A stretch of DNA of 64,000 nt, taken from positions 12,710,001-12,774,000 of the forward strand of contig CM022677.1 of NCBI GenBank assembly GCA_012295275.1. The letters run 5' to 3'. The DNA comes from Chrysomallon squamiferum (taxonomy: Eukaryota > Animalia > Mollusca). Both the position numbers and the translations under genes were made by a program. Below the pieces are notes generated by a model. It made no database searches. It was not told the origin of the DNA and worked only from the letters and a program-made list of their open reading frames with translations. This document shows, one piece after another, positions 21,645-44,800 of this stretch (positions are counted from its first letter, which is position 1; each line of letters starts with the position of its first letter).

Positions 21645-21872
21645 TTTTAACTCGAAGGTGACTAGCTCCTTCGGGCGTAGCCCGAGCCCTACGGTCATAA
21701 GTTAAAAGTACATATTGGCTTTTAAGGCCAAAAACCAAAAACCATTCGTGTTATACATTGTTTTTTCAATAATAAACAAGAGTTGGGTTGGGATCTATCA
21801 TGTCCCTAATTCACACCCACGTGGTCTATTGCGTTATAGTCACGTGATCTCTCGCGCTATAGTACGACTGTT
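21645..21872. repeat. EVE1 left terminus: terminal hairpin (21645-21707) plus ITR (21701-21872)
   Basis: ttttaac-[49-nt GC-rich branched palindrome]-gttaaaa. 21701-21872 is the reverse complement of 24592-24763 with one mismatch and contains two CACGTG boxes. Confidence 0.95.
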
Positions 21873-21953
21873 TTACTAAGTTAATAGGATCTATACGTTA
21901 TAACACGTTTATATATTTAATACAGATAACAACGATATATTAAATTTTAAAAT

Positions 21954-21959
21954 TTTATT
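21954..21959 (-). terminator. Polyadenylation signal for the EVE1 capsid gene
   Basis: AATAAA on the minus strand about 45 nt after the VP stop codon. Confidence 0.55.
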
Positions 21960-22002
21960 TAACTTATGATAACATATTTACATAATATTAATGTTTAACA
22001 AA

Positions 22003-24123
22003 TTAAATTGGATAAGACCAATCAAAAGCATTTCCCATGGTTTCGACTGTTCTATCTCCATAGGCACCGTGTAACGGCCATAACTGTCTACGTCTATTTC
22101 TACGTTTGTTCCAATTGTCCCATACGGGAGCAAAGCATCTCATTTTCCATGTTTTCTGAATTCTTTCTTTGTATTTAGCTTCTTCTTCACCTAGAAACTG
22201 ATCTTGCTCAGTATGCTTAATGTTATCTTTGTTACCCATAGGCGTTGTTTCATTTTTCTTATATATCAGTCCTTGCATGTTACCTGGACAACCTCCTAAA
22301 CCTATTGGAATGTACTTAGGATACATTCCAGTTCTAACGACAAATTCGATCTCACTGTAATAAGTGATCTGAATGTTTGCATGATAATTAAAATACAATG
22401 TACTTCCACCACTTGTTTTCTCGACATCTGGATATAATCCAATTAGAAATATAGGTGGTCTGTTACATTGATACGTACGCCTATGAGAACCATCTTTACA
22501 TACGTCTACGTTAGGATTATTAGCATTGTTATGCATGACACCTTGATTACTTAATTTAGTGCCACCATCATCTACCATAGATGGTGCACCAAGTACATTA
22601 GATGCTTTATTCTGAAAACACGCTGTATAATGTATACGTCTATATTGATGATTGAAATAACAACATATCGCTGTACCCATTGGATGCTGTGTAGTATTAG
22701 TAACTATAATATCATGTGTTGGCCAGACTTCTAGATTACCTTTGTTTTCATTAGCACATTGATACTTAGATTTCTGACATAAACCAGAAATGTCTGTGAA
22801 ATTGAGAGTATGAGATGTTTCTGATGGAAATAAGATTAACGGTGAATCCTTGCACGTATAATCTAATGCAAAACCGCCAGCACTAATAACAGTTTCACGA
22901 TAACCATCGTGTTTTTTCATATCGTATATGTAATTTGGAGAAAGAGCTGTATATTCTACTCCGTCACCTGTCCAAGCATGATTTAACATTTGCATTGCCA
23001 TATCACTTGGTAAATACAATTTTCTATCAGGTTGAACAGGGATACTTCTATTGCTTACATCGTCCATACAGTCTTCGTCTTTAAAATAATAATTATGAGA
23101 CAACATTAAATTTTTTTCTGGTAACCCATAATCGTTATTTATATCGGTAAACGTCCAAACACGAGCGTTTGGTGGTGCCATAACAGGTACTTCGTTAGGA
23201 TCTGCTTTGTTATTATTTAAAACGTGAATAAGCATATTATTTATATTGAAACCTATTCTTTTGATTCTGTATCCCATGAAATCATCAGGTAAATTCCAAT
23301 CTTCTGGTTTAGTACTGGCGGCTTTGTACCAATATGGTATAATATGTCCTCCGTGATTAAACGTAAATTCGCATACATTAGGATCACCTATAGCTTTTTT
23401 CCAATTAACATTATCTGAATTATTGTCTAATACCTTCATTTCAGCTTTTCTATTTTTGGTAAAATTAATAGTACTTGTAAATGTTCGTTTAAATGTCTTT
23501 TTAATCGTAATGTATCTAGGATCCGTTCCTTTGGTAGTTCCACCAAAACCTTGATATAGAACATTATTACCAGTAGTCGATGCCATTGGAGCACCTTCGA
23601 CAGCTTCGCTCCCTCCGGTGTCTGTGACTTCTTCATTTGCAATGGAATCAGGTTCCATAACAGATTCTTCTGGTTGTAAATATGTACCTCTGGAATTCGA
23701 TTGTTCCAATACATCTTGCGAAACTACGTTGGATAACTGTGTGTTATTAGATCTTTTAGCAGAGCTACCACCGTACGGTTCATCAGATGGTCTCTTCATA
23801 GCTTGTTTATCACTATATCCGGACGAGAATTGCTGATCTCTTTGTCGTTGTACATCATTTGCGAGTATAGCGGGGTCTTTAACGTCGTCTTCGTCCGAAT
23901 CTTCAATAGCGTTATAGTTTTGCCAAAGATTTTGAATTGCCTGATAGAAATTTCTATTCGGAACTTGTATATTTGGATACTGACGTCTGACCTGTAACCA
24001 TTGTTGCTGTCTTTCTCTATAGGGGACATTTTGATCAGCTAGCTTGTCGAACAACGTAGCTTTAGCAGCAGCCCAAAGTCTATTTATAGCCTTTCTGCTT
24101 AATAATTGTTTTCCTTTAATCAT
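22003..24123 (-). CDS. VP: Parvovirus/densovirus-like capsid protein, 706 aa, intact
   Basis: Uninterrupted intronless ORF inside ITRs. A low-complexity G/S/T-rich region precedes jelly-roll-like strands (YITIKKTFKRTF, GHIIPYW, YRIKRIGFNI, PPIFLIGL, YHANIQITYYSEIEF). The C-terminal 200 aa align with the ORF next to NS1 in EVE2. No PLA2 HDxxY motif seen. Confidence 0.85.
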   Translation of the reverse strand: MIKGKQLLSRKAINRLWAAAKATLFDKLADQNVPYRERQQQWLQVRRQYPNIQVPNRNFYQAIQNLWQNYNAIEDSDEDDVKDPAILANDVQRQRDQQFSSGYSDKQAMKRPSDEPYGGSSAKRSNNTQLSNVVSQDVLEQSNSRGTYLQPEESVMEPDSIANEEVTDTGGSEAVEGAPMASTTGNNVLYQGFGGTTKGTDPRYITIKKTFKRTFTSTINFTKNRKAEMKVLDNNSDNVNWKKAIGDPNVCEFTFNHGGHIIPYWYKAASTKPEDWNLPDDFMGYRIKRIGFNINNMLIHVLNNNKADPNEVPVMAPPNARVWTFTDINNDYGLPEKNLMLSHNYYFKDEDCMDDVSNRSIPVQPDRKLYLPSDMAMQMLNHAWTGDGVEYTALSPNYIYDMKKHDGYRETVISAGGFALDYTCKDSPLILFPSETSHTLNFTDISGLCQKSKYQCANENKGNLEVWPTHDIIVTNTTQHPMGTAICCYFNHQYRRIHYTACFQNKASNVLGAPSMVDDGGTKLSNQGVMHNNANNPNVDVCKDGSHRRTYQCNRPPIFLIGLYPDVEKTSGGSTLYFNYHANIQITYYSEIEFVVRTGMYPKYIPIGLGGCPGNMQGLIYKKNETTPMGNKDNIKHTEQDQFLGEEEAKYKERIQKTWKMRCFAPVWDNWNKRRNRRRQLWPLHGAYGDRTVETMGNAFDWSYPI

Positions 24124-24132
24124 GAACTCTGA

Positions 24133-24489
24133 TTATGTCTGTTTAAATATGTAACGTTTTTCTCCTTCCTCTTCTTCTAACAAATGACGTTCGGCTGGTG
24201 TAACGTTTTTGTCAATGTCTTTACCAGTATCGGTTGATACGAATTCATCAAATTGATTCAAAGCTTCTTCTATTTGATTCTTTGTATAAGTAGAAATTCC
24301 TTCCACTGAAGCTTCTACAATAGATTGACCAATAGCTGTAGCTGGTTCTAATATGGCACTTTCTGCACCAATCAATTCAGATATGGCAGGAGCTGTAGAT
24401 TCTAATATAGCGTTTGTAGCTAAACCAACTGATGCATCAAATGCGTACTCTATTATCTCTGTAGCTATAATGCCTAACGCAGTGAACAT
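24133..24489 (-). CDS. 118-aa acidic, amphipathic viral ORF upstream of VP (candidate minor capsid or VP1-unique module)
   Basis: ATG about 60 nt after the TATA box; intact; stops 9 nt before the VP ATG and is in the same reading frame. Confidence 0.75.
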   Translation of the reverse strand: MFTALGIIATEIIEYAFDASVGLATNAILESTAPAISELIGAESAILEPATAIGQSIVEASVEGISTYTKNQIEEALNQFDEFVSTDTGKDIDKNVTPAERHLLEEEEGEKRYIFKQT

Positions 24490-24551
24490 GCTATCTCATC
24501 GAACGTTTATGATGGAATGATGTTAATATTTGAAAACATAACGATATCTGC

Positions 24552-24573
24552 ATTTATACCGGATATGACATCA
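24552..24573 (-). promoter_or_regulatory. EVE1 structural-gene promoter (CRE-like TGATGTCA + GGTATAAAT)
   Basis: Motifs lie just inside the ITR; same layout as TGACGTCA..GGTATAAAT upstream of NS1 in EVE2. Confidence 0.65.
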
Positions 24574-24591
24574 TATACTATATTTAAATAT

Positions 24592-24788
24592 AACAGTCGT
24601 ACTATAGCGCGAGAGATCACGTGACTATAACGCAATAGACCACGTGGGTGTGAATTAGGGACATGATAGATCCCAACCCAACTCTTGTTTATTATTGAAA
24701 AAACAATGTATAACACGAATGGTTTTTGGTTTTTGGCCTTGAAAGCCAATATGTACTTTTAACCCGAAGGTGACTAGCTCCTTCGGGC
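24592..24788. repeat. EVE1 right ITR plus half hairpin in the alternative (flop) orientation
   Basis: 24592-24763 is an inverted copy of 21701-21872. 24764-24788 (ccgaaggtgactagctccttcgggc) is a direct, not inverted, copy of 21652-21676. Confidence 0.95.
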
Positions 24789-25007
24789 ACCGGATGTATC
24801 GAAAAAGTCATTAAGTATGTTTAAAATATCGGCATCATTATCGTGAATCTCTTTTTCCATCTCATTCCAGATATTAAGCATGGCTTGATCTGTTGTTCCT
24901 AAAAATTGTTTTTCTGAATCATTCATCAAATATTTCATATAGTCTTGAAGTGATGTTCTTTGTGGGTCTTTAAGTTTCATGATTTTCAAATATTGTGTAT
25001 ATTTTAT
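24789..25007 (-). pseudogene. NS1: Internal fragment of a parvoviral NS1 (HUH motif III region)
   Basis: QYLKIMKLKDPQRTSLQDYMKYLMNDSEKQFLGTTDQAMLNIW aligns with EVE2 NS1 GYIKLRKLRQPYKYSVSEFMNYLIRDDEKMFLGTNCPDMLNKW. Confidence 0.85.
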
Positions 25008-27690
25008 CCAAAGTTGAATGTTTGGGTTTGTGTTATGACGTTGTTGTTAATGTTTAGTGTGATTTTGTTGTTATCTGTTTTTTTGTTGAAAAGGAGGCAT
25101 GTCGTTTTGGAAAGAGAAATCTTTGTGCCCCATTTTAACGCCCAGTTGTTTATGTTGTTTAAGTCTTTTTGTATTGTTTCTGCCTGCACACCAAAAAGTG
25201 CAGTCGTCTGCAAAGAGTGCTGTGTTTTTTCGTTCGGTTGGTGGATTGTTGGTGTTGTCTTGTTTGTCAAGTGCTGTGATGATGTCGTTGATGTAGATGT
25301 TGCAGAGTGTGGGCGAGATAACGGATCCTTGTGGGATGCCATTTTCGATTGTCATTTTCTCTGAGGTGTGACCATTTACTTTGACTGCTATGGATCTGTT
25401 GTTGATGAAGTCTTTGATAAACTTGAACATGTTGCCTTTGATGTTGTTGTTGGTTAATTTGATGAGCAGTCCTTCCCTCCATACCATGTCAAAGGCTTTT
25501 TCAATGTCTAGGAATACTGTGATGACTTTTTTTTCCTAAAAGATAGGTTGATTATTGTTTGCAGACAGGTGATCTGGTTGTTTGTACTGTGTTTCTTCTT
25601 GAAGCTGCTTTGATATTTGCTGATTAAATTGTTGTTGTTTAGATGCTGGCTCAGGTGTGATTGATCATCATTTCCAGTGTTTTGCACATGTGTGACGTCA
25701 GTGTGATCGGCCTGTAGCTGTTGGGTAGTAAGTGATCTTTGTGTGGTTTGGGCCAAGCTGAAACATTCGGCATATTTCCAGTTTGTTGTAATCTTACCTG
25801 TTGTCCATATTGTGTTGTAGAGATCGAGTAAGATTAGTAGTGTTTCATCTGGTAGGTGTTGTAGTATTGTGTAGCTTATTTTATCTGGCCCTGTGGCTGT
25901 ACTTTTCTTGTTTTTGAGGGCATGATTTAATTCGCTGATGTTGAAGAGTTGATTGTATTTCAAGTGTTCTGTGTCTGAGAAATGTTTGTTGATTGTTAGG
26001 TTGTCCAGTGGTTTCTTTGTGAATTTCAGTAGGAAGGTTGAGTTGCTGCTGGACTTGGTGAAAGTTTTACTGAGTAGATCTGCTTTTTGTTTGTCAGTGA
26101 ATGCGATGTTGTTTTTGTCGAGAGTGTTGATTCTGTGGTTTTTATTTGCCTTGGATGTCTTTCACTTTGGCCCACATGTCTTTGACTGATGTTTTGTGGT
26201 CGATGTTGTTGCAAAAGAGTTCCCAGTGTTCTTGTTTTGCACTGAGAATTAGATTGGAAACTTGTTTTTTTGCTATTTTGTATTTTTGTCTGTGGAATGA
26301 TTTCTGTCTTTTTTGTATTGTCTTCTGAATTTGTTTCTTTCTTTGCATTTCTTTTCTATGTGTTCCATCCACCAGGGAGTGGATATTTTGTCGGTGCATT
26401 GTCTGGTTTTGGGTATGAATTTGTTTGCAGTGGAGTATATTGTGCTGGTGAGTGATGTGCAGTAGGTGTTGATGTGGTTGGGGTTTATGTGGTGATGTTT
26501 CTGCATGCTTTGTAGAAGCCTTCCCAGTTCGCTTTGTTGAAGTTCCATTTGGATGTGAAAATGGATCTGTCCAAGAAAGTGTTCTTGCAGTTGGTGAGTA
26601 TTGGGTGATGGTCGCTGTTTAATTCATTGAGCACTTGCCATTCACAGAGCACTGTGATGTCCTTACTTTGTGGATGTTAGATCAATGGCGGATTGGCTAC
26701 TATTGATGTCACTGGTGTATGTGAATGTTCCGTCGTTCAAACAGACCAGCTGGTTTTGCTCTATGAAATTTTCAAGGATGATTCCAAGACTGTCGTCTGT
26801 CGAGCCACCCTATAAGGTGTTGTGACAGTTGAAATCACCCACTATAAAGAGCTTGTTGTTTGTTGTGATCATTTTGTTTAAGTCGTGGGTTTGAATGGTG
26901 TGTAGTGCGGGAATGGATGGGCTGTACATTTTAATTGTGTTGATGTTTTGATTGTTATTGTGTACTGTGATGCTTAGTATTTCTATGTTGGTGTGAACTT
27001 TGGCTTGGTTCAGCTTGGTGTGTGGAATGTCTTGTTTGACGAGTGTCATGATGTCTCCCCGGGTGCTGAGACTTTGATACCCGGGGACCTTAAAAGCTTT
27101 TGTTGTTTTGTTGTTTTTATTGTGTCCTAGCCATGTTTCTTGTATATGCATATTACGTCTGGTGTGTTTTGAGTGGAGGCCAGGAAGTGTACGAGTTTGT
27201 CTCTGTGGCCTGCTGAGTTGTTGTTACTGTTTGGTGTTTCTTTTGTTCATTGCTGTTTTGTGTTTGTGGGATTTCTCTTGTCTGTGTGTAATTTAAGTCT
27301 TTGTTGACTGTGGAGATCTTGAAGCCCAAGCTGTCTTCGATTATTGAAGTCGTCTGTGATGTTTTCTTGGTTGTTTCTGATGTTGTGCAGTTCGATGAGG
27401 AGGAAGACAATAATTTTGTGTATTTCTGCAATTCTGACCTCCTTTGTTCGATTTTGGGGCATTTTTTGTTAACGTTTCGTAGAATTTTGTTTTCTCATCT
27501 GTTGTAATATTTGATGGACACATTTTGTAATGTGGTGTGTGTGGACCCTGGCAATTCGCGCACTTTGCCAGAGAACAGCATTGGCCTGAGTTTCTGTGGT
27601 GATTTCCACTGCAGACAGTGTCTGCACTTGGGCAACTGCGGCCTCATTTCTGTGAGCGTCTCTGTACCCATCAATGGTGATGGTTGTGTT
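25008..27690 (-). mobile_element. Degenerate I-group LINE (ORF1 zinc knuckle, APE endonuclease, RT), 3'-truncated at the viral junction
   Basis: ORF1 knuckle KCANCQGPHTPHYKMCP (~27515-27570); APE motifs IQETWL and FIVGDFNCHN; RT motifs GPDKISYTILQHL, DIEKAFDMVWREGL, GIPQGSVISPTL and LFADD; many frameshifts. Confidence 0.93.
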
Positions 27691-30659: not shown

Positions 30660-33600
30660 AGATAATTACTACTAGACAGATAATAGTGAATGTGTGTGTA
30701 TATCAGCAATAGTGATAATTACTTCTACACAGGTAATGTGTGTGTGTGTGTTTGTGTGAGTGTGTGTTTCAGCAATAATTGCTACTACTCTGTTAATAGT
30801 GTGTGTGTGTGAGTGTGTGTGTGTTTCAGCAATTGTGATAATTGCTACTACTCTGATAATAGTGTGTGTGTGTGTGTGTGTGTGTGTATCAGCAATAGTG
30901 TTAATTCCTACTACTAAGATAAAATAGTCTGTGTTTATGAGTGAATCAGGAATAATGTAATTGCTACTCAGATAATAGTGTGTGTGTGTGTGTGTGTCTG
31001 TTTCAGTGAATCAGCAATAGTGTGTGAGTGAATCAGCTACTCAGATAATACTACTAATGATACAATAGTGTGTTTGTGAGTGAGTGTGTGTATATCAGCA
31101 ATAGTGATAATTGCTACTAATGATACAATAGTATGTTTGTGAGTGAGTGTGTATCAGCAATAGTGAAAGTTGCTACTACAGAGACAATTGTGTGTGAGTG
31201 AGTGTGTGTGTCAGAAATAGTGTTAATTGCTACTACTCTCATAATAGTGATAATTCCTACTCAGATAAAGTGTGTGTGTGTGTGTGTGTGTGTGTGTCTA
31301 AATAGTGATAATTGCTATTCAGATAATGAGAATGTGTGAGTGAATCAGCAGTACTGATAATTGCTACTCAGATGAGTGAATGTGTGAGTGTATCAGCAAC
31401 AGTGGTTATTACTACTCTTGTAATAGTGAGTGTGTGTTTCAGCAATAATTGCTACTACTCTGATAATAATGTGTGTGAGAGTGAGTGTGTGTTTCAGCAG
31501 TAATGATAATTGCTACTACTCAGCTAAAAGTGTGTGTGAGTGAGTATCAGAAATAGTGATAATTGCTTATAATAGTGTGTATGTGTGAGAGTTAGTGTAT
31601 CAGTAATAGTGAGTGTGTGTATCAGCAATAGTGTTAATTGCTACTACTGATAATAGTGTGTGTGTGTGAGTGAGTGAGTGTATCAGCAATAGTGATAATT
31701 GCTACTACTCTGATAATAGTGTGTGTGTGAGTGAATCTGCAATAGTGATAATTGCTACTCAGAAATTAGTATGTGTGTATCAGCAATAGTGATAATTGCT
31801 ACTACTCAGACAATAGTGTGTGTGTGAGTGTGTATCAGCAATAGTGAGTGATAATTGCTTCTACTCAGATAATCTGTGTGTGAGTGAATGAGCAATAGTG
31901 ATAATTGCTACTCAGAAAGTAGTTTGTGTGTATCAGCAATAGTGATAATTCCTACTACTCAGATAATAGTGCATGTGTATAAGTGAGTGTGTGTGTATCA
32001 GCAATAGTGTTAATTTCTACTCAGATAATGTGAATCTGTGATGAATCAGCAATAATGATAATTGCTACTCAGATAATGTGAATGTGTGAGTGAATCAGCA
32101 ATAGTGATAATAGCTACTCAGATAATAAATAATGGGTATGTGCGTGTGTGTGTGTGTGAGAGTGAGTGTCAGTGTATCAGCAGTAGTGATACTTTCTACT
32201 CAGATAATGGTGTGTATGTGTGAATGAGTTTGATTGTATCAGTGATACTGATAATTGCTACTCTGATAATGTGTGAATGTGTGAGTATATCAGCAATAGT
32301 GTGTGAGTGAGTGAATCAGCAATAGTGATTATTGCTACTCAGGTAATGGTGTGTATGTGTGAGTGAGTTTGAGTTCATGAGCCATAGTTATAATTGCTAC
32401 TACTCAGATGCTAATGTGTGTATATTAGCAATGGAGATAATTACTACTACTCAGATAATAGGTGTGTGTGTGAGTGTGTGTATCAACAATAGTGATAAGT
32501 GCTACTCAGATAATAGTATGTTTGTGAGTATGAGTGTATCAGTAATAGTGATAATTGCTACTACTCAGATAATGTGTGTGTCAGCAATAGTCATAATTGA
32601 TTGTCAGATAATTTGTGTGTGAGTGAATCAGCAATAGCGATACTTTCTACTTAGATAATGTGTTTATGTGTGAGTGAATCAGCAATAGTGATAACTGACA
32701 CTCAGGCAATGTGTGTGTGTTAATTGCGACTACTGTCATAAAAATGTGAAATGGTGATAATTCCTACTCAGGTAATAATGTGTTTGTGTGTGTATATCAT
32801 CAATAGTGATAATTGCTACTCCGATAATGAGAATGTGTGAGTGAATCAGCAATAGTGATAATTGCTACTCAGATAATAGTGTGAGTAAGTGAGTGTGTGT
32901 ATCAGCAATAATGATAATTGTTACTACTCTGATAATAGTGTGTGTGTGTGTGTGTGAGTGAGTGTATCAGCAATAGTTATAATTGCTACTACTCTGATAT
33001 TAGTGAGTGTGTATGTGTGAGTGAGTGTGTGTTTCAGAAATAATTACTACTCTGATAATTGTGTGTGTGTATGAGTGAATGAGTGTATCAGCAATAGTGA
33101 TAATTGCTACTACTCAGATAATAGTGTGTGTATGTGTGTGAGCGAGTGTGTTTGTATCAGCAATAGTGTAAATTGTTAATGTGTGCATGTGCGTGTTTGG
33201 TGTCATCCCATCTTGTCAAATCCCATTTTGCCAAAATTAATACAGAAATAACAACGTGACCCTACCTCGCTGCTGAATGGGTTAATCCAACGTGGTAAAT
33301 GTATTATTTGTTGTGAGTCTTGTGTGATCATTTATTTCTTGAAAATCTGTTAATGCTCCTTTGTTTCACAAATTATTTTTTTTAGGTTATTAATCAATCT
33401 TCTCTGTCAGTTAAAAACAGTCAAATCTTGTGCCTATGTTTTTTGGAAAATTGGTTAATCTTCCTTTGTTTTACATAGTTTTCTTTAACCTGTTGATCAA
33501 ATTTTCCTTGGCTTGTTTAACATTTTAAGTTGCATCCCGTGATGTTCTCCTCTTGCCCTGGTTTGTGTAACACGTTTTACATTGTGCATGGATTCTTTGT

Positions 33601-34220
33601 TTCCCTCTCGTGTTTGTGTCGTTGCCAGGTTCCATTCAAGGCTCAACAGAGCTCTTCCAAACCAGCACCCCAACATCTACAAGTTTGTAGACCTCATCAT
33701 CTCAAGAGACAGTTGTAAGCTGGAGCCAAGACACCTCTCCAGTACCTCCATGTAGTTGTACACCTTGTGAAACTTGAACTTCGTGTATCTGAACACAGTG
33801 TCCCTGTATATAGTGCTTGAACTCTGAATAATACTATCTCTGAACATAGTGCTTGAATATTAAATACACAAATACACAAATTCAACTTGTTTTGTTACTC
33901 CTCTGTGGCCGGTACATGGGATTTGATAGGATGGGATGACACTCAACCCTGTGGCCTAGTCCACTGTCTTATTTGAGTACCGTGAATGGGATTAGTGATT
34001 TATTTATGACTTCCACAAGATGGAATAGAACCATGTGTTTGTGTGTGAGAGAGCGTGTGTATCAGCAATAGTGATTATTGCTACTCAGGTAATGTGTTTG
34101 TGTGTGGGGGTGAATGTGAGTTTATGAGCAAAAGTTATCATTGCTACTCAGATAATAGTGTGTGTGTGAGTGAGTGTGTATCAGCAATAGTGATAACTTC
34201 TACTCTGATAATGTATGTGG
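30660..34220. repeat. Compound satellite (~50-65-bp units with variable GT tract), interrupted at ~33190-34030
   Basis: Dozens of copies of atcagcaatagtgataattgctactactcagataatag(tg)n. Confidence 0.95.
33200..33942 (+). mobile_element. Non-autonomous MULE-like DNA transposon inserted in the satellite
   Basis: 27-bp TIRs (gtgtcatcccatcttgtcaaatcccat / atgggatttgataggatgggatgacac, 2 mismatches); internal remnant FHSRLNRALPNQHPNIYKFVDLI..KTPLQYL resembles MULE transposase C-termini. Confidence 0.75.
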
Positions 34221-34519
34221 GTGTATGTTAAGAAGTATTTGGTTATCAGTTTACATTCAAATGCTGTGTACAAAATTATCAGGCCTGTTTTATTTAAATT
34301 TAAGATTCAGACAGATGGTAAGCTTGACATAATAAATTATTTTTATATTTTTCAGTTAAAAAAATACTAATTTTTATAAAATTAAATTATATTTTAATAC
34401 AAAATAATCAGCACCAAAAATATCAGCAGCAATATGTAATGTGGTGGTGATAGTAGCAACTATGATGTTGTAATAGTAGCACCAGCATCAGCAGTAGTAA
34501 TAAATAAATAAATAAATAG

Positions 34520-37015: not shown

Positions 37016-37215
37016 NNNNNNNNNNNNNNNNNNNNNNNNNNNNNNNNNNNNNNNNNNNNNNNNNNNNNNNNNNNNNNNNNNNNNNNNNNNNNNNNNNNNN
37101 NNNNNNNNNNNNNNNNNNNNNNNNNNNNNNNNNNNNNNNNNNNNNNNNNNNNNNNNNNNNNNNNNNNNNNNNNNNNNNNNNNNNNNNNNNNNNNNNNNNN
37201 NNNNNNNNNNNNNNN
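37016..37215. other. Assembly gap (200 N) hiding the left boundary of EVE2
   Basis: Run of N. Confidence 1.
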
Positions 37216-37818
37216 AATGCTGCAGGTGAAGAATTGGGTGCACCTGCTATGGCAAGTGATCCTTCGAATAAACTTGCTAAAAAAGGAGTAACTGCAATTG
37301 ACATTAGTTCTCAGAATTATAATACAGAAATGGATGGTTCTCATAGAAGAACTTATCAATGTAACAGACCACCTATGTTTCTCATTGGTATATACGCAGA
37401 CGTAGAAAAGACTAGTAGTGGCAACACCTTATTTTTTAATTATCATGCTAATCTACAGATTACATATTGCAGTGAAGTAGAGTTCATAGTAAGAACAGGA
37501 TTCTGTCCTAAGTATATTGCTATAGGACTAGGTGGTTGTCCAGGTCCCATGTGAGGTCTGTATATGTATGGTAAGGATGTAGCCGGAAATAAAGATGTCG
37601 TTAAACATACTGAACAAGATCAATTCTTAAGTGAAAATTCACAACAATATGTCGAACGAATACGTAAAACATGGGAAATGAGAATTGCTGCTCCTATATG
37701 GGACAATTCGAATCGAAGAAAGTCGAGGCGACGAGTTGTCTGGCCATTACATGGAACATACGGAGACAGAACGGTTCCAATTAAAGAAAACGAAACCGAT
37801 TATTCTTATCCTATTTAA
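37216..37818 (+). pseudogene. VP: Capsid protein C-terminal ~200 codons, one in-frame stop
   Basis: Shares DGSHRRTYQCNRPP, FNYHANxQITY, IGLGGCPG, KHTEQDQFL, WPLHGxYGDRTV and SYPI* with the EVE1 VP; TGA at 37552-37554. Confidence 0.9.
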
Positions 37819-37964
37819 ATAATTATTCATTGTTCATATTAGTTAGTTAATTACTTATCGTTAATTACTATTTTAAAAGAACTATTTGTTATTACGCTGT
37901 GTAAGAACACAGTGAAAAGTCTGTTGTGTTATAGATCTCGTAACATTTCGTTACCTCATATCAA

Positions 37965-37994
37965 TGACGTCATGTAAATATTGGTATAAATAAA
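37965..37994 (+). promoter_or_regulatory. NS promoter (TGACGTCA + GGTATAAAT) overlapping an AATAAA
   Basis: CRE palindrome at 37965-37972, TATA at 37985-37990, AATAAA at 37989-37994; ATG in a good context (cactATG) at 38080. Confidence 0.65.
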
Positions 37995-38079
37995 GCTGAC
38001 GTTCAAAAATATTTTTGTCGTTTGTCATTAATTGACTTGCTACACGTTAAAAGAAGCATAGTTATAATCCAGCACCACT

Positions 38080-40214
38080 ATGCAGAAATATATTGAAGAC
38101 GCTACTAATACTTTTGAATATTACTCAATTATATTGGGACATAAAGAGTACGACTTGGTGCATCCCAACTATCTGGTTCCAAGATGCCTTGCGAAAGATA
38201 GGAACGGAAAATATGTTTACGCCACGGGAAAGAATTATATCAAGAGTTTCGTCATGGACCACCAAGACATTCTAGACAAGTGCGTGGACCATTGGTCGAC
38301 TCCGCAATCGGAGTTCATGATGAGAGGTCAGGATAGAGTGATAACTGAACTTAAAAACATGTTAAGGAATAGAAACTGGAAGATGCTGTTAGTGTACCAC
38401 GATAAATAGTGTGATATTGACTCCAACATACCTACAAATGGAAGTCATGTCCATATCATATGGAAAACAACCATGACACATCCAAGTCAAGATCGTCAAT
38501 ACAGACGTTTACACCGAGCTGTTCTGGCTGAAAAAGGGTATATAAAGTTAAGGAAGTTACGTCAGCCATACAAATACTCTGTATCTGAATTCATGAACTA
38601 CTTAATAAGAGATGACGAGAAAATGTTTTTAGGAACAAATTGTCCGGACATGCTCAATAAATGGATTCTATTACTGGATCAAGAACAAAACTGGCTAATA
38701 GACGATTATAATGAAAATACTGTATTCGAAGACACGTCTATCAACGAAGATATAAAGACATTTGAAGTTAAGCCTCCCAAGAAAAAAATGACGGTTCAGG
38801 AATTTTTAAATGAACACAATGACGTGTTACAACATGGACAAGGAATGACAGTAAAGGAGATAAATCAAGAAACAAAGAACATTATAGACATTGATGATGA
38901 TATTCCAACTAACAAGCCTGAAAAGATTCCAAGTCACCTCATGTCTACCAAATCAGCAGACACATTTGACTTTTTTTTACAAATTGGTTCAAAAGTATCC
39001 AGATGTGAATAAACTCAATATGCTCATAAGCAAATTTGATACATCGAGCAATGAATTTAAAGCTCTTTGTAATACTGTTGCCAACATATCTGGAGAAAAA
39101 ATATTTAAAGCAGCAAGAACCAAATACCTAATGGAACAAGCAGATAAAAGTGCCTACGATCAGATAAAAGCTCTCGACGATACCTAGAAAATTATATGAC
39201 ATCAGAAGATTCTTTGAAACTATTTAACAGTTGGTGCCAGGAACAAGAGATACCAGAGCGATGGTTCTATGTACTAATGAATACCCTTTTGAAAGGCAAA
39301 GGCAAAAAGAAAATTGGAATCTATTTACAAGGCGAGAGCGATTCCGGCAAGACAATGTTGTCGTCGAGTTTGTTTGAACCTTTGACATGTTCCGGTAAAA
39401 TAGCGAAAGACAATTTTCCATGGCAGATGCTGGGTGACAAAAAATTGTTATTGGAGAAGAAATCGCTATTACCCAAGTAAACAGAGACAAATACAAAGAT
39501 CTTCTCAGTGGCAGTAAGGCAACATGCGAGCGAAAGGGAACGACACCGGTGTATTGCAAAGCAAGCTTATGTATTTTAAACAGCAACATTCCTTTTGGAC
39601 AGAACATTACATCAACTCAAATGAGTATTATGAAAACTAGATTGTACTTCATCGAGCACTTGAAGAAAAGCAATACACTAAAACGAGCTAAATTATTCAC
39701 CTTGTGCGAAGATCCATCCGAAGACGAAATAATGGTTGCGATTGAAAACGATAAACAATTCTTTAACGATAAACTCAATCCACTACAAAATGACAAGACA
39801 ATTCAAGCTAAGTATAGTTACTTCCATGACTCTTTTGACAACGAATCACAAGAATCACGTGGAGTAAAGAGGCAATATGATAACATCGAAGCCTATATAG
39901 AAAATGAAGAGAAAGATCTCAATCAGAATGAAGACATCATCAATGAATCTCCAAAGAAGAAACGAAAAATTCTGAAAGCAAAACGATCAGACTGTGATAC
40001 GATAAGTGGTAACACGTCAGATGAACATTCTCAAGATCTGTTTATAGCATCTGAAGATGACAACAACCCTGCTGATAATACAGTTCCAGAAGCGTATATG
40101 AATAATAACCAAGCTTTGGAATTGATATCGAAGACATTATTCCGCCATCGCAAATTAATTATAAAGTGTTTGACATTTTTCGTTCCTATAAATGATATCA
40201 TTGGTGCTGTTTAA
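38080..40214 (+). pseudogene. NS1: Parvoviral NS1 replicase (HUH endonuclease + SF3 helicase), ~710 codons, disrupted
   Basis: Reading through TAG 38407 gives GSHVHIIW (HUH, 38446-38454); motif III NYLIRDDEK; Walker A GESDSGKT (39331-39354); Walker B IGEE after a frameshift near 39440; B' KDLLSG..ERK; motif C CILNSN; NLS PKKKRK (39951-39968). Frameshifts at ~38975, ~39180 and ~39440. Confidence 0.93.
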
Positions 40215-40387
40215 AATGTTAATCATAGTTACATTGTTACGTTAATAAAAGTTAAATAATTAAATTTACTTAGTTTGTCATATGTTTATATTAATTTTAT
40301 ATATAAATACAATGAAAAATAACATTATTAATAAATAAAAAAAAATAAAATAAAAAATGAAGTCGCTGAAAATTATATTTCAACTGT

Positions 40388-40560
40388 ACTCTTGTTATTG
40401 TAAAAAAACAACAAAGTTTAACTCATATTGGCTTTTGGCTTTTTGGCTTTTTAACCAAATGTACTTTTAACTTATGATCCTTCGGGTTTTGGCTTCGCCC
40501 GAAGGAACATTATCACCTTCGGGTTAAAAGTACATTTGTTAAAAAGCCAATAACAAGAGT
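40388..40560. repeat. EVE2 terminal hairpin 1
   Basis: Stem ttggctttttaaccaaatgtacttttaac / gttaaaagtacatttgttaaaaagccaa around a 51-nt branched core homologous to the EVE1 core; outer actcttgtta/taacaagagt also pair. Confidence 0.92.
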
Positions 40561-40564
40561 TTAG

Positions 40565-40759
40565 TTGTCAACCTAACTCTTATGATTTGCAAAGATCCTC
40601 ATTACTGGCTTTTGGCTTTTTGACCAAATGTACTTTAACGTATGCTCCTTCGGGCGAAGCCTAAGCACCTTCGGGTTAAAAGTACTTTTGGTCAAAAAGC
40701 CAAAAGCCAGTAATGAAGATCTTTGTTTTTTTTACAAATCACAAGAGTTAGGTTGACAA
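40565..40759. repeat. EVE2 terminal hairpin 2 (variant), ~75-bp arms
   Basis: Long imperfect palindrome around the 35-nt core gtatgctccttcgggcgaagcctaagcaccttcgg; a third partial arm lies at 40845-40890. Confidence 0.92.
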
Positions 40760-43629
40760 TATATCACGTCTTGTCTTTCACTCCCCCCACCCTATATACT
40801 TTTATTTTTATATTTTGAGATGACGTTATGTCACGTGACTATGCACTTTCGGGTGTTAAAGTACATTTGGTCAAAAAGCCAAAAGCCAGTCTGTTCAACT
40901 CTGTTATTTAAATAGGTCAACTGATTCCATTTTATGTTTTAACGATGTTTTATAGGGTACATTTTTACCAGAATTCTTGGTATTTATTTATTTTAAGTTT
41001 TGATTAGATTATTAAGTACAGTATTCTTTCAAAACAAAATTATTTAAAAATATAAAATTAAATTTAAAAAAAAAAGTATCTCCCTTAAACCAAACATTTT
41101 TTAATACGAAGTCTGTACTTTTATTTTAAATCAGTAATAAAGGATTTCTGACACTAAATCATTTTAAAAAAGTAACTTGTTTTATCACAGACTTGCCTGT
41201 ACTTGGTGCTGTGTCTGGTCCAAACATTCAGAATACTGAGTATATCTGATCACATCTTTCATGAACAACACTGTAACTTTGAATCTAAATTCAGTATCAC
41301 AATATTATAAATTCTTCAATAAGAACAGTCCATGATTCAAACAAGTAATGTTTTTAAAATGTTATTTTATCCAGTTATTCAGTTCTTTATATTTACTGTG
41401 GAGATGTTTTATCTTCTGTTTACTTAGTTCAGTACAGTCAGAAAACCTGAAGAACTTGGAGGCAAACTTGTCAAGTCATTTAGATTCAGTAGACATCAGT
41501 TCTTGTTAATAGCTTTCTGTGGTGACTGAAATATAAAATATTACATTCAAACATTTTAACAAGACCCACTATAATTTTATATTTTATCATTTGAATCTGA
41601 AGAAATGTTTTCAACCAATAATAAGTACAGTTAATTTAACTGAAATAAAATAAAGTTTAATTATATTTATTTAAACAGTCTTGTTGGACCTCTATTTTTC
41701 ATTGTATATATATATTTTCGTTCTTAAAGCAGTAACTTCCATTTTACTTTTAATTAAGTACATAAATTAATATATTTTATAAAAATTGACAACAAGTAAG
41801 ATCAGTAATATTTATGTGTTAATTTTTGAAGATACATTTTCTAAAGTACAGTCCTTTTCTCCCAACTGCTGTATCAATGTCATGTCTTTGCATCTACAGA
41901 TACCATTATTTAAAAAAAGAAAATTATATATAATAATAATATTAAAATATTCTCATATGGCATTAAATGATTTATATTTTACAGTTTATAAAGTCTAGTT
42001 GTAAACTGAATTACCTGTCCATTATACTCAACATTTGATTACAAAACATTGACCTAATAAATAAAATTGATTTACTGAAAAACTATAACATTTATCATTG
42101 GAAAGGATAGCAAATTATTATTTAAAAGTTACCTGATGTATTAAAAATTACAAATTATTTAGTCATAATAAATACATTTTACATCTTATATCATTATTAA
42201 GATACCTCTTGAAAATTATCTGCTTGTATGTTATTTTTTTTAAAATACAGAAGTATATAATTTTTAGTGTTCGTAACCAGCAAGTTTCTTCAGTTTTGTG
42301 TCAAACTTTATAATTAACAAGATTGTTCACCATAAATAAACAAAATAATATTTTGGATGTCTTTTTTTCTTGGATTTTAATAATAAAGAGTTCACTTTGC
42401 TTTTATCTTTTTTATTTATTTATTTTTTTATTTCAAAAACATAGGATGTTGTATATAAGATTTTTGTTAATAATACCTTTTCTGTTTTACTTATTTTCTT
42501 TTATAGTATTAGTTTAATTATATCTTTGAAACCTATAAAAAACAGCAGTTTCAAACCTTTGGTCTGTAGAGAACATTCTGCTCAGACAACATGGGGACAA
42601 TGTGAGAATTCTGTCACGTGAACTGACGTGATCAACATCGTGGACAACATGGACTGCAGTGGAAGTTCAGTCATCTGTAAATATAACATAGAAGTATATT
42701 AAAACTTATAACATACATATATATGATTAATAGTTTGTTAAATTTTTAATATACTAGTATTTGAATTGATAAATGTTTTAAAATCAACTAGTTTTAATAA
42801 ATAAGAATCTGAAATGATCCCAGAGCTCACTCTATCCTTGAAACATTACCGTTTCCCATTCCACACTGAGCTCCATTAATAATCTGTCTTGTATTGTGTC
42901 TGTGCCAGGTCTTAAACCACCATTAATTTCTACAGATTTTGGAATAATGTTTTAAAGAAATGAACAGTTTTATAAATTGTTAAATTCTAAATGAAAATTA
43001 GGATTATGTGATATCAGGTTTTAATTTTTTGGTCTTTTTTTTAAACATTTACAGTGTTTAAAGTTAAATTCTGTTAATTTACATATAATAAAAATAATAA
43101 TAAATAAATAATTAGTAAAATAATAGGTCTGTTTCAATAGCTGTTATATCGAGGAGAAACGTGATTTATGAATTTTTTTTAGCTGCTTTTCCTAATTATT
43201 TTCTTTCCTTATTTTATTTTCTAGTCAAATTGGTTATCAAGTATTTTATTTCACAGTGGTTAATCACTGGAATAAAGTGAGAGAGAAAACTGTAAACTAT
43301 GAATTAAACTGACTGCTGTGTTTTCAGTATGATTATCAAACACTTCTCACTAGTCAATGTGTAAGTCAGTGTATGAAGTGTGGGTAGGCACAGAATCAAA
43401 TCACATTAGTGCTTAAAACCGGACTGTTTCTGGCACCATTATAAAAGAAAGTGAAATGTGTCTTCCTGTCCATGTGTGCACACATAATTAAACATTTCAG
43501 ACAGAAAATCCTTGAATCTAGAAAATACAACAGATTTAGATAATTAAACCATTCAACAAAATCTGCAAATATTTCTGTTTTTCAGGTCAAAAGGATATTT
43601 TCTAAGTCATTCTAAGACAGTATTTATTA

Positions 43630-44800
43630 ATTATAATTTGTATTTATGTTTGTAGAGAGGAAGGAATGTGATGATATTTCTTCTAGATAAGATGAACAGC
43701 AAACTTGCCAAGTTGGGTCCTTTACTTTTCTGTAAAGTACTTTGTTTTCAAGAAATAATCTGTCCCATTGCCAGATTAGTGTGAAGAAACCTGATTCTTC
43801 TAATCTTCTCTCAGCTCTGCATGGAAGACCATGTAATACACCAATCTCCTTATTAACATGTCTTTTGCCTGCATCACTGCTAGTTCTTCTAAAGCTGGGA
43901 GATGATGTTGTGGCTTCCATAGTTTCATGAAATTGTTCCACTGTTACCATTTATTGTGTGACCTTTCTTCCACCACCTTTTATAACTTGTCTCATTGTCT
44001 GTGGAACTTCTGTACTACTTGCAGTATCTCTAAAAACTTGAAAACTTGAAAAGTTAACAGATATTGGAGCTGAAGTTAACTCCTCTTTTAAAGTATCTCT
44101 TTTGACAACTCTCATCCATAGCACCCTTTAACAATGCTTGATTTTTCTTATCTCAGAACCTGTTCATCAAAGAATGCAAAGGTCGAGCAGTAACTGAGAA
44201 TCCTTTAATGTATGATCTGAAGTAACTGGCAAACTGCAAAAATGACATCAGGTCCTTTGGTGTATTTGGAACTTCCCATTCAAGAACAGCCTTTATTTTG
44301 TCTGGTCCTGTAATTACCCCATCTCTAGACATCACGTCCTAGATATTTCACTTCTTTCTTAAGGAAACAGCGTTTGCTTGGTTTTAGTTTGAGCCCATGC
44401 TGTTTTAAAATTTTAAATACCTCTTCTAGTTTATCTATGCACACATAAAAAAACAGAACACTGAAATATCTGCTCTCTAAAGCAATGCTGCATGAGTCTT
44501 TGAAATGTGGCTGGTGCTCCTGATAAACCAAACAGCATACGATTGATTCAAACAAACCCACTGGAGTGATGAATGCAGTTTTGTCTTTGTTTTTATCCTC
44601 AACTGCAACTTAGTTGTATTCACTAGACATATCAGTGTAGTGAACCAATTTGCTCTGTGCAAAGCATCTAATGACTCTTCTATTGTAGTTAGTAGAAATC
44701 AGTCTTTCCTAGTTTTAGCATTCAGCCACCTGTAGTCCACACACAGATGAATTGTGTTGTCTGTTTTTCTCAATAGGAGATGAATATGGGCTATTTTTAT
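43630..44800 (-). mobile_element. Degenerate Gypsy pol fragment
   Basis: IRLCVDYRWLNAKT, HRANWFTTL, LKLKPSKRCFLKKEVKYLG and FASYFRSYIKGFS. The segment LEESGFFTLIWQWDRLFLENKVLYRKVKDP resembles 18225-18315 of the first Gypsy copy. Confidence 0.88.

What the first reader, a model, noticed from the sequence alone, without database searches (positions are those of the whole stretch)
37216..40560. Reversed gene order in EVE2: VP upstream of NS1 on the same strand, with no terminus between them
Seen: the VP stop (37818) is followed by a 261-bp spacer with no ITR or hairpin, then NS1, then the terminal hairpin. The first AATAAA after VP overlaps the NS TATA box (TATAAATAAA), which looks like compact native design. 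In EVE1, VP also starts right after a terminus. Known: monosense parvoviruses put NS first; ambisense ones use opposite strands. Inference: either a lineage with ITR-VP-NS-ITR order (EVE1 then being a split-off derivative) or a head-to-tail fusion of two segments with the junction ITRs lost.
Basis: partly seen in the sequence, partly recalled or inferred. Interest (0 to 1): 0.85.

Follow-up and report, generated by a model that had tools for sequence, protein, structure and literature searches.

The report
Parvovirus insert with capsid-before-replicase order
A decayed parvovirus-like insert in an animal genome really has the end of a capsid gene followed, with no hairpin between, by the replicase gene. 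This order was likely made when two separate virus DNA molecules were joined at integration, which would point to a two-segment parvovirus rather than a reversed gene order.

Summary
VP C-terminus (37216-37818), a 261-nt spacer without hairpin, broken NS1 (38080-40214) and terminal palindromes lie on one strand. Contigs of other sequencing runs cross the joint, so it is not a misassembly.

NS1 belongs to Parvoviridae through an intact relative (Parvo_NS1, 34 bits against a cutoff of 20). The VP label rests on context only.

The interpretation stays open, but I favour fusion (about 0.55):
- EVE1 (21645-24790, minus strand) is a complete 3146-nt VP-only unit. It has 175-nt ITRs (173/175 identical), flip/flop tips, its own CRE+TATA promoter and an AATAAA.
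- NS1 in EVE2 has the same promoter type, its own AATAAA and its own palindrome.
- Both clusters carry plainly non-native joints: an NS1 fragment fused to an EVE1 hairpin tip, and 2.5 palindromes after NS1.
- The distance from VP stop to CRE (146 nt) equals what exact loss of an ITR-ITR palindrome would leave (143-146 nt by EVE1's measures).
- A distant NS1 relative sits on a 2601-nt contig.

This suggests a bipartite parvovirus, known so far only from Acheta domesticus segmented densovirus. A native ITR-VP-NS-ITR genome (about 0.2) is not excluded. The contigs that could settle the question could not be fetched. The TATAAATAAA overlap is not beyond chance.

The parts
37016..37215 (.). Assembly gap (200 N) that hides the upstream part of the EVE2 VP
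   Evidence: The RNA-library contig X6 record 25 (856 nt) lies with its letters 534-856 on 37216-37557, so it runs 533 nt further left.
37216..37818 (+). EVE2 putative capsid (VP) gene, C-terminal ~200 codons, one in-frame TGA at 37552-37554
   Evidence: 64-65% aa identity to aa 507-708 of the EVE1 VP. In all four runs laid, the contigs carry another letter in that stop codon.
37819..37878 (+). VP 3' untranslated stretch still alignable to EVE1
   Evidence: blastn 37333-37878 = 22494-21945, 70%. EVE1's AATAAA (21954-21959, minus) aligns to AATTAC here.
37879..37964 (+). Spacer of unproven origin between VP homology and the NS promoter; no palindrome
   Evidence: Fold z -0.78. The best match to EVE1's inner ITR is 20/23, reached by 15/200 shuffles. 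A longer collinear alignment scores 46 against 34.2 +/- 5.9, reached by 9/200 shuffles.
37965..37994 (+). Likely NS promoter: TGACGTCA (37965-37972) and GGTATAAATAAA (TATA 37985-37991)
   Evidence: Read. The same pair (TGATGTCA ... GGTATAAAT) lies 16 nt inside EVE1's left ITR. Calling these motifs a CRE and a TATA box is from recalled knowledge.
38080..40214 (+). EVE2 NS1 (HUH nuclease + SF3 helicase), broken: in-frame stops at 38407 and 39185, frame changes near 38971, 39188-39196 and 39438
   Evidence: Collinear with intact relatives P0021, P0016 and P0024 over its whole length. P0016 passes Pfam Parvo_NS1 and matches AAV Rep40/68.
40215..40380 (+). NS 3' untranslated stretch with AATAAA at 40244-40249
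40381..40567 (.). Terminal palindrome A (Y/T-shaped hairpin with GGCTTTT repeats)
   Evidence: Fold z -8.9. 79% identical to the outer part of EVE1's ITR.
40565..40759 (.). Terminal palindrome B, second copy in tandem
   Evidence: Self-complementary at 77% over 212 columns. Fold z -12.3.
40760..40890 (+). Inner-ITR-like piece pointing rightwards with a CRE-like ATGACGTTATGT (40813-40824), cut off by a third partial palindrome arm (40839-40890)
   Evidence: It is collinear with EVE1's left ITR (40666-40770 ~ 24772-24660).
21645..24790 (-). EVE1: complete VP-only unit of 3146 nt. ITR arms at 21701-21875 and 24589-24763; ORF118 24133-24495; VP 22003-24123, intact
   Evidence: ITRs 173/175 identical. 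The tips 24757-24788 and 21645-21676 are direct copies, that is flip/flop. ORFs.
24791..25016 (-). NS1 fragment (about aa 150-205) fused directly to EVE1's left hairpin tip
   Evidence: tblastn P0016 aa 88-132 at 25016-24882, E 2.7e-6. EVE2 NS piece, 47.6% over 42 aa, E 1.5e-8.
25071..25532 (-). Reverse-transcriptase fragment abutting the NS1 fragment
   Evidence: Pfam RVT_1, E 8e-21.

Best explanation
EVE2 is an endogenous, broken parvovirus-like insert in which a capsid unit and a replicase unit lie head to tail. The hairpin-free joint between them was likely made by joining two separate genome molecules, a VP segment and an NS segment, with loss of the terminal palindromes at the joint.

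Shown:
- the order VP-spacer-NS1-palindromes;
- read support for the joint;
- NS1's kinship with Parvoviridae;
- a complete VP-only unit (EVE1) with both termini 12 kb away;
- other non-native joints in both clusters.

Inferred:
- The virus was bipartite, with each segment carrying ITR, a CRE/TATA promoter, its gene(s), AATAAA and ITR.
- The two segments were concatenated through their ends in the host nucleus, as AAV genomes do.
- The ITR-ITR palindrome at the VP|NS joint was then excised, leaving the VP 3'UTR joined to the NS promoter.
- The array then decayed in a transposon-rich region.
For: (1) EVE1 is a genome-length ITR-ORF118-VP-ITR unit of 3146 nt. Its arms are 175 nt and 173/175 identical, its hairpin tips are truncated and in flip/flop relation, and its ORFs are intact. 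A VP-only molecule with both replication ends therefore existed.

(2) NS1 in EVE2 is a self-contained cassette. It has TGACGTCA + GGTATAAAT upstream, the same pair as at EVE1's left end. It has AATAAA 30 nt after its stop and a full palindrome 166 nt after its stop. With a left terminus it would measure about 2.9-3.1 kb, like EVE1. The segments of Acheta domesticus segmented densovirus (AdSDV) are 3316 and 3332 nt (passages of PMC10267136).

(3) Non-native joints are common here:
- an NS1 fragment fused to EVE1's hairpin tip and to a truncated RT;
- two tandem palindromes, a truncated next unit and a third arm after NS1.

(4) The spacing fits. EVE1 has 127-130 nt from the VP stop to its ITR and 16 nt from its ITR to the CRE. 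Exact loss of both ITRs therefore predicts 143-146 nt, and EVE2 has 146 nt.

(5) The VP's own poly(A) signal place is kept in EVE1 and decayed in EVE2.

(6) A 42%-identical full-length NS1 (P0021, 680 aa = 2043 nt) is on record on a single contig of 2601 nt, about the size of an NS-only unit.

(7) Relatives in another genome lie as many NS1 and VP copies on a few contigs, as expected for concatemeric integration. Densovirus EVEs as head-to-tail concatemers are in print (passages of PMC6880638). Head-to-tail joining of AAV genomes through ITRs is also in print (passages of PMC8749450).
Against: No ITR remnant in the spacer reaches significance:
- local score 24 against 19.0 +/- 2.8, reached by 15/200 shuffles;
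- 46 against 34.2 +/- 5.9, reached by 9/200;
- no likeness to the inner part next to palindrome B, 107/200;
- distal 3'UTR z 1.45, 53/500; promoter + leader z 0.36, 169/500.

The positive control is itself weak (z 2.5, 14/500). Non-coding homology can hardly be tested at this divergence, in either direction.

In the same array the next joint kept two whole palindromes, while this one would have lost both.

A 705-aa VP suggests a capsid of the size that usually packs 4-6 kb, and VP+NS in one molecule would be about 5.6 kb (inference from recalled knowledge).

No NS-only unit with both termini was seen. The context of P0021's contig is unknown. EVE1 and EVE2 are different lineages (70% nt identity, 64% aa), so EVE1's layout need not hold for EVE2's virus.

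Deletion variants of the joint region in the runs could mean more than one copy of the same joint. These are 37711>37857 in X1 and X3, and 37636>37981 and 37898>39310 in X5, with short sides of 23-33 letters.
Confidence: 0.55

Rival explanations
1. Native reversed order: the virus behind EVE2 had one genome of about 5.6 kb reading ITR-ORF118-VP-NS1-ITR, with an internal NS promoter in the spacer. EVE1 would then be a derivative that lost NS1.
For: The spacer has no palindrome and no significant ITR remnant. NS1 is followed by a full terminal palindrome, and then by what looks like the left end of the next unit. That is what a head-to-tail array of such genomes would give without any extra deletion. 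The size of 5.6 kb fits a 705-aa VP. Several deletion variants of the joint region appear in the runs.
Against: EVE1 would need a deletion that removes NS1 yet leaves two 175-nt arms 173/175 identical, with flip/flop tips. EVE1's distal 3'UTR shows no likeness to EVE2's NS 3'UTR (z -0.11, 279/500), although that test is weak. The NS promoter is of the same type as the terminus-adjacent promoter of EVE1. The VP poly(A) place is conserved in EVE1. The stop-to-CRE distance equals the ITR-excision prediction. No parvovirus with this order turned up in my searches (listings; passages of PMC13426907).
Confidence: 0.2
2. Canonical monopartite genome (ITR-NS1-ORF118-VP-ITR) integrated as a head-to-tail concatemer. 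The VP|NS1 joint is the unit boundary with both ITRs lost. EVE1 and the right end of EVE2 are internally deleted units.
For: Head-to-tail densovirus concatemers with NS1 upstream of VP are documented in tapeworm genomes. On the minus strand an NS1 fragment lies upstream of EVE1's VP.
Against: This needs three separate deletions, each ending at an ITR: NS1 lost from EVE1, VP lost after EVE2's NS1, and the junction ITRs lost. NS1 has its own AATAAA and a palindrome 166 nt after its stop. ORF118-VP has its own promoter 16 nt inside an ITR.
Confidence: 0.1
3. Assembly artefact: the joint was made by misassembly or scaffolding of repeated viral pieces.
For: A 200-N gap abuts the VP fragment. The window differs from all four runs at the three frame changes, which lie in or beside homopolymer runs.
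Against: Contigs assembled independently from other runs cross the joint: X5 record 19 (37679-39266), X1 records 2-4, and X6 records 28-31.
Confidence: 0.03

Closest known systems
Acheta domesticus segmented densovirus (AdSDV; Brevihamaparvovirus), the only bipartite parvovirus in print (PMC10267136, passages read; PMC13426907, passages read)
   Same: NS and VP cassettes sit on separate molecules of about 3.1-3.3 kb, each with hairpin termini, its own promoter and its own poly(A) signal. The VP segment carries an extra small ORF.
   Different: Here the layout is only inferred from endogenous copies. The VP is 705 aa (378 aa in AdSDV) and matches no Pfam or PDB capsid family. EVE1's ends are true 175-nt inverted repeats, whereas AdSDV's termini 'did not form ITRs'. 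No PLA2 ORF was found. Kinship with Brevihamaparvovirus was not tested.
Densovirus EVE concatemers of tapeworms (EmuDNV; PMC6880638, passages read)
   Same: Multi-copy, partly intact NS1 and VP genes with ITRs, present as head-to-tail arrays in repeat-rich regions, with some copies in RNA data. Their NS1 also hits PPV_E1_C / Parvo_NS1.
   Different: There VP lies 67 nt downstream of NS1 inside one unit, flanked by ITRs. Here NS1 is followed by a palindrome and VP has ITRs of its own.
AAV head-to-tail concatemers and ITR-fused episomes (PMC8749450, passages read; dual-vector joining is recalled)
   Same: Separate linear genomes with ITRs are joined end to end in the nucleus, mostly head to tail. 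The junction ITRs are recombined.
   Different: That is a vertebrate dependoparvovirus and somatic episomes. Complete loss of both ITRs at a joint is my inference for this locus and was not read in that paper.
Bidnaviridae (bipartite, parvovirus-derived; mentioned in PMC13426907)
   Same: A bipartite linear ssDNA genome with terminal repeats, a parvovirus-like capsid and an SF3 helicase.
   Different: Bidnaviruses carry a PolB gene and segments of about 6 kb (recalled). No polymerase ORF lies in EVE1 or EVE2.

Membership tests
Parvoviridae (NS1/Rep) | SF3 helicase domain of the Parvo_NS1 family | tested here: met
   The window's own pieces are too short and broken to pass (best PPV_E1_C, E 0.011). 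They are 45-55% identical to P0016, which scores 34 bits on PF01057 against a cutoff of 20 and matches AAV Rep40/68 at E 1e-4. P0024 has Atlas features 0.98 to Parvo_NS1 clusters. Walker A GESDSGKT, IVIGEE and NSN are read.
Parvoviridae (NS1/Rep) | N-terminal HUH rolling-circle nuclease motifs | tested here: met
   GSH-x-H-x-x-WKT and N-Y-x-x-Y-L are conserved in the window and in 3 relatives in alignment A2. Calling these the HUH and Tyr motifs is recalled knowledge. No profile hit to a nuclease family was obtained.
Parvoviridae | Terminal palindromic hairpins / ITRs flanking the coding units | tested here: met
   EVE1 has 175-nt inverted arms, 173/175 identical, with flip/flop tips. EVE2's palindromes give z -8.9 and -12.3.
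Parvoviridae | Jelly-roll VP capsid protein | tested here: inconclusive
   No Pfam hit. No PDB hit (best E 0.66). The AlphaFold model has pLDDT 30. Atlas features lie nearest to parvovirus capsid clusters at 0.91, but recognition is low at 1424.
Bipartite parvovirus (AdSDV-like layout) | VP cassette on a molecule of its own with both termini | tested here: met
   EVE1, 21645-24790. It is an endogenous copy, and a defective genome is not excluded.
Bipartite parvovirus (AdSDV-like layout) | NS cassette on a molecule of its own with both termini | tested here: inconclusive
   The right terminus is present and the left is absent in EVE2. P0021 lies on a 2601-nt contig of unknown content.
Bipartite parvovirus (AdSDV-like layout) | Separate packaging of the two segments | not testable with these tools
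   This needs virion DNA.
Head-to-tail concatemeric EVE array | Several units on one strand with ITRs at unit boundaries | tested here: met
   VP, NS1 and the next unit's left end are all on the + strand, with two palindromes at the NS1|next-unit boundary. There is none at the VP|NS1 boundary.

The most novel reading that the evidence does not exclude
A parvovirus lineage whose native single genome runs ITR-ORF118-VP-NS1-ITR, capsid gene first on the same strand as the replicase. No described parvovirus has this gene order. EVE2 would be a near full-length copy and EVE1 a replicase-less derivative.
Probability: 0.2. Interest if true: 0.8.

Novelty: new member of a known kind. Interest (0 to 1): 0.5.

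Why it matters
If the fusion reading is right, the window preserves a VP-only and an NS-only genome unit of a very divergent parvovirus. That is fossil evidence for a second, independent bipartite parvovirus lineage. Only one, from crickets, is in print.

It would also show that segments of such a virus can be concatenated and endogenised together.

If the reversed-order reading is right instead, it would break the rule that monosense parvoviruses put NS first.

Either way the locus is a caution. Gene order in EVE arrays cannot be read as viral genome order without the termini.

Tried and rejected
No whole genome is held for this window, so other copies could not be sought.

Searches for relatives' DNA found nothing:
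- Viral contigs with VP, an NS1 piece, P0016 and alignments A3 and A4: 0 loci;
- Metagenome contigs with A3 and A4: 0 loci;
- earlier findings of this scan: nothing.

The tool that fetches encoding contigs is closed. The contigs of P0016, P0024, P0002 and P0021, which could settle gene order, were therefore not seen.

The profile search of protein representatives met a full queue 7 times and never ran.

The AlphaFold model of VP was too poor (pLDDT 30) to search by fold.

Copy number, episome versus integrated state, and transcription therefore remain open. Cover in the RNA libraries X6 and X9 does not show transcription.

Tests for an ITR remnant, for homology of the distal 3'UTR and for a link between EVE1's 3'UTR and EVE2's NS 3'UTR were all non-significant.

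A PLA2 motif in VP was considered and rejected. A YxGxG-like YQGFG is present, but there is no HDxxY nearby, and the PDB PLA2 hits have E 0.7-1.4.

My recalled impression that ORF118 resembles polyomavirus VP2 got no Pfam support.
Full report
WHAT IS THERE. The window is AT-rich, animal-like DNA full of microsatellites and retroelement debris. It holds RVT_1 fragments at 25071-25532(-) and 44325-44606(-), and integrase fragments at 18328-19050(+).

At the finding's place the + strand reads as follows:
- a 200-N gap (37016-37215);
- about 200 codons of a VP-like frame (37216-37818, one in-frame TGA at 37552);
- a 261-nt spacer;
- an NS1 gene from the ATG at 38080 to the stop at 40214, broken by in-frame stops and three frame changes;
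- 166 nt of AT-rich sequence with an AATAAA (40244-40249);
- palindromes.

The VP pieces are 72/112 and 50/77 identical to the C-terminus of an intact 709-codon ORF at 22003-24132(-), the VP of 'EVE1'.

IS IT A PARVOVIRUS? Pfam sees nothing significant in the window's own pieces. The protein search found relatives only in unnamed assemblies.
- P0016 (628 aa) passes Pfam Parvo_NS1 (34 bits, cutoff 20). It matches AAV Rep40/Rep68 helicases at E 1e-4.
- P0024 (724 aa, intact) has language-model features at 0.98 to Parvo_NS1 clusters.
- The window's NS1 is collinear with these relatives over its whole length. It keeps the GSHxHxxWKT, Walker A, Walker B and NSN motifs.

The VP label is weaker:
- no Pfam or PDB match;
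- a useless model with pLDDT 30;
- only a low-recognition feature match to parvovirus capsid clusters.

I keep 'VP' on grounds of context and size.

THE JOINT IS REAL. Of 11 runs listed I laid four, from three studies.
- X5 record 19 (1575 nt, 38 other letters) spans 37679-39266.
- X1 records 2-4 tile 37710-38407 nearly without differences. X1 may be the source sample.
- The RNA-library contigs X6 records 28-31 tile 37660-40038.
- For X3, the listed pieces stop at 37881 and resume at 38033, though depth is reported between.

So the joint is not a misassembly.

The same call shows that the runs' contigs read otherwise than the window at the VP stop codon and at the three NS1 frame changes. Two of these are listed in table 4. 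The third is implied by the one-letter length difference of records 6 and 14. All three lie in or beside homopolymer runs. The window's frame changes may therefore be assembly errors or private to one individual.

Other runs carry lesions of their own: 19 letters left out at 37324 in X5 and X6, and one left out at 39619 in X3 and X6. No difference at the stop at 38407 is among the rows shown. This is the picture of a polymorphic, decaying endogenous copy. I built no repaired frame.

NO HAIRPIN IN THE SPACER. The two spacer halves fold like shuffles (z -0.78 and -0.28). The palindromes after NS1 give z -8.9 and -12.3. Local and global alignments of the spacer to EVE1's ITR, to the inner part beside palindrome B, and to EVE1's distal 3'UTR are all non-significant:
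- 15/200 and 9/200 shuffles for the best two;
- 107/200 against the inner part beside palindrome B;
- 53/500 and 169/500.

The positive control, the proximal 3'UTR that blastn does align, reaches only z 2.5 (14/500). Absence of detectable remnants therefore says little at 70% identity in AT-rich DNA.

WHAT THE SURROUNDINGS ADD.

(a) EVE1 (21645-24790, minus strand) is a complete unit of 3146 nt. It reads: truncated hairpin tip, 175-nt arm, 16 nt, TGATGTCA, GGTATAAAT, ORF118, VP (both open), AATAAA 44 nt after the stop, 127 nt in all, 175-nt arm, tip. The arms are 173/175 identical. The two tips are direct copies of each other, the flip/flop relation expected from hairpin transfer. A VP-only molecule with two working ends therefore existed.

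(b) Directly outside EVE1's left tip lies a fragment of NS1 (about aa 150-205). It is on the same strand and is fused on its other side to a truncated reverse transcriptase. This is a plainly non-native joint.

(c) After EVE2's NS1 come palindrome A, then palindrome B with an inner-ITR-like piece pointing rightwards and a CRE-like ATGACGTTATGT. That element matches the NS promoter's 11/12. Then comes a third partial arm. This is a unit boundary of a head-to-tail array, followed by a truncated next unit.

(d) VP homology between EVE2 and EVE1 runs 60 nt past the stop and ends at EVE1's AATAAA, which EVE2 reads as AATTAC.

(e) AATAAA occurs 411 times in the window. The TATAAATAAA overlap is therefore not a sign of design.

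(f) Relatives in another genome are multi-copy. There are 13 VP and at least 17 NS1 proteins or fragments on contigs of 8418, 60905, 297455 and 452437 nt, some intact. A 42%-identical, full-length NS1 (P0021) sits on a lone 2601-nt contig.

WEIGHING THE MODELS.

M1 is a bipartite virus with the segments fused at integration. It makes every terminus-adjacent arrangement native: ITR-promoter-ORF118-VP-ITR, NS1-ITR, and ITR-CRE. It needs only the VP|NS1 joint to be secondary. It also predicts the spacing. EVE1's 127-130 nt from stop to ITR plus 16 nt from ITR to CRE gives 143-146 nt, and EVE2 has 146 nt. That is what exact excision of the long ITR-ITR palindrome at a head-to-tail joint would leave. 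The instability of long palindromes is recalled knowledge.

M3 is a native VP-NS order. It makes EVE2 native but needs EVE1 to have lost NS1 while keeping perfect ends. It gets some support from the intact double palindrome one unit further on, and from the fit of 5.6 kb to a large VP.

M2 is a canonical NS-VP genome in a concatemer. It needs three deletions, each ending at an ITR.

My odds are M1 0.55, M3 0.2, M2 0.1, artefact 0.03, and the rest unknown.

COMPARISON WITH THE KNOWN.
- AdSDV is described as the first parvovirus with a bipartite genome: 3316 and 3332 nt, with T-shaped hairpins shared by both segments. A July 2026 paper still cites it as the example.
- Head-to-tail densovirus EVE arrays are known from tapeworms, with NS1 upstream of VP inside each unit.
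- Head-to-tail joining of AAV genomes through ITRs is well documented.
- My four literature searches listed no parvovirus with VP upstream of NS on one strand, and no endogenous evidence for a bipartite one. Subscription journals are not covered.

VERDICT. The object is a new member of known kinds: a concatemeric parvoviral EVE from a probably bipartite parvovirus. A 0.2 chance remains of something new, a reversed gene order.

Noticed in passing
window 24124-24495 (-): ORF118 and the EVE1 VP are in the same frame, separated by one TAA (24133-24135) and three codons before the VP ATG. ORF118 could therefore be the N-terminal extension of a longer VP1, through readthrough or one nonsense change, rather than a separate gene. 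It has no Pfam match.
   Followed up: partly
window 40341-40950: In the runs the palindrome region has 4-30 times the word depth of the VP/NS body: X3 about 7700 against 200-400, X5 about 1800 against 210, X1 45-138 against 13. Many loose ends lead into other flanks. The hairpins are far more numerous in this genome than the genes, as solo termini, other EVEs or MITE-like copies.
   Followed up: no
window 37216-40214: The runs' contigs differ from the window at the VP stop and at all three NS1 frame changes, and they carry indels of their own. The locus is polymorphic, and part of the window's damage may be assembly error in homopolymer runs.
   Followed up: partly
window 37216-40038: Two metatranscriptomic RNA libraries (X6, X9) hold 0.41 and 0.28 of the stretch's words. 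X6 contigs cover VP, spacer and NS1 at similar depth of about 29. Transcription is not shown, because no silent control stretch could be laid.
   Followed up: partly
window 18206-18310 and 43715-43819; 18328-19050; 25071-25532; 44325-44606: Retroelement fragments (integrase, RT) and an 85% inverted repeat pair flank both EVE clusters. The region looks like a transposon graveyard or piRNA-cluster-like trap holding two EVEs from different virus lineages (VPs 64% identical).
   Followed up: no
window 30680-34250: A satellite of about 3.5 kb built of 50-65-nt units (GT-rich stretch + ATCAGCAATAGTGATAATTGCTACTAC) lies between the two EVE clusters.
   Followed up: no
proteins P0002, P0009, P0024 (unnamed ENA contigs): A related genome carries intact 690-aa VP and 724-aa NS1 genes among many broken copies on the same contigs. 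That suggests recent or ongoing endogenisation in that host.
   Followed up: no
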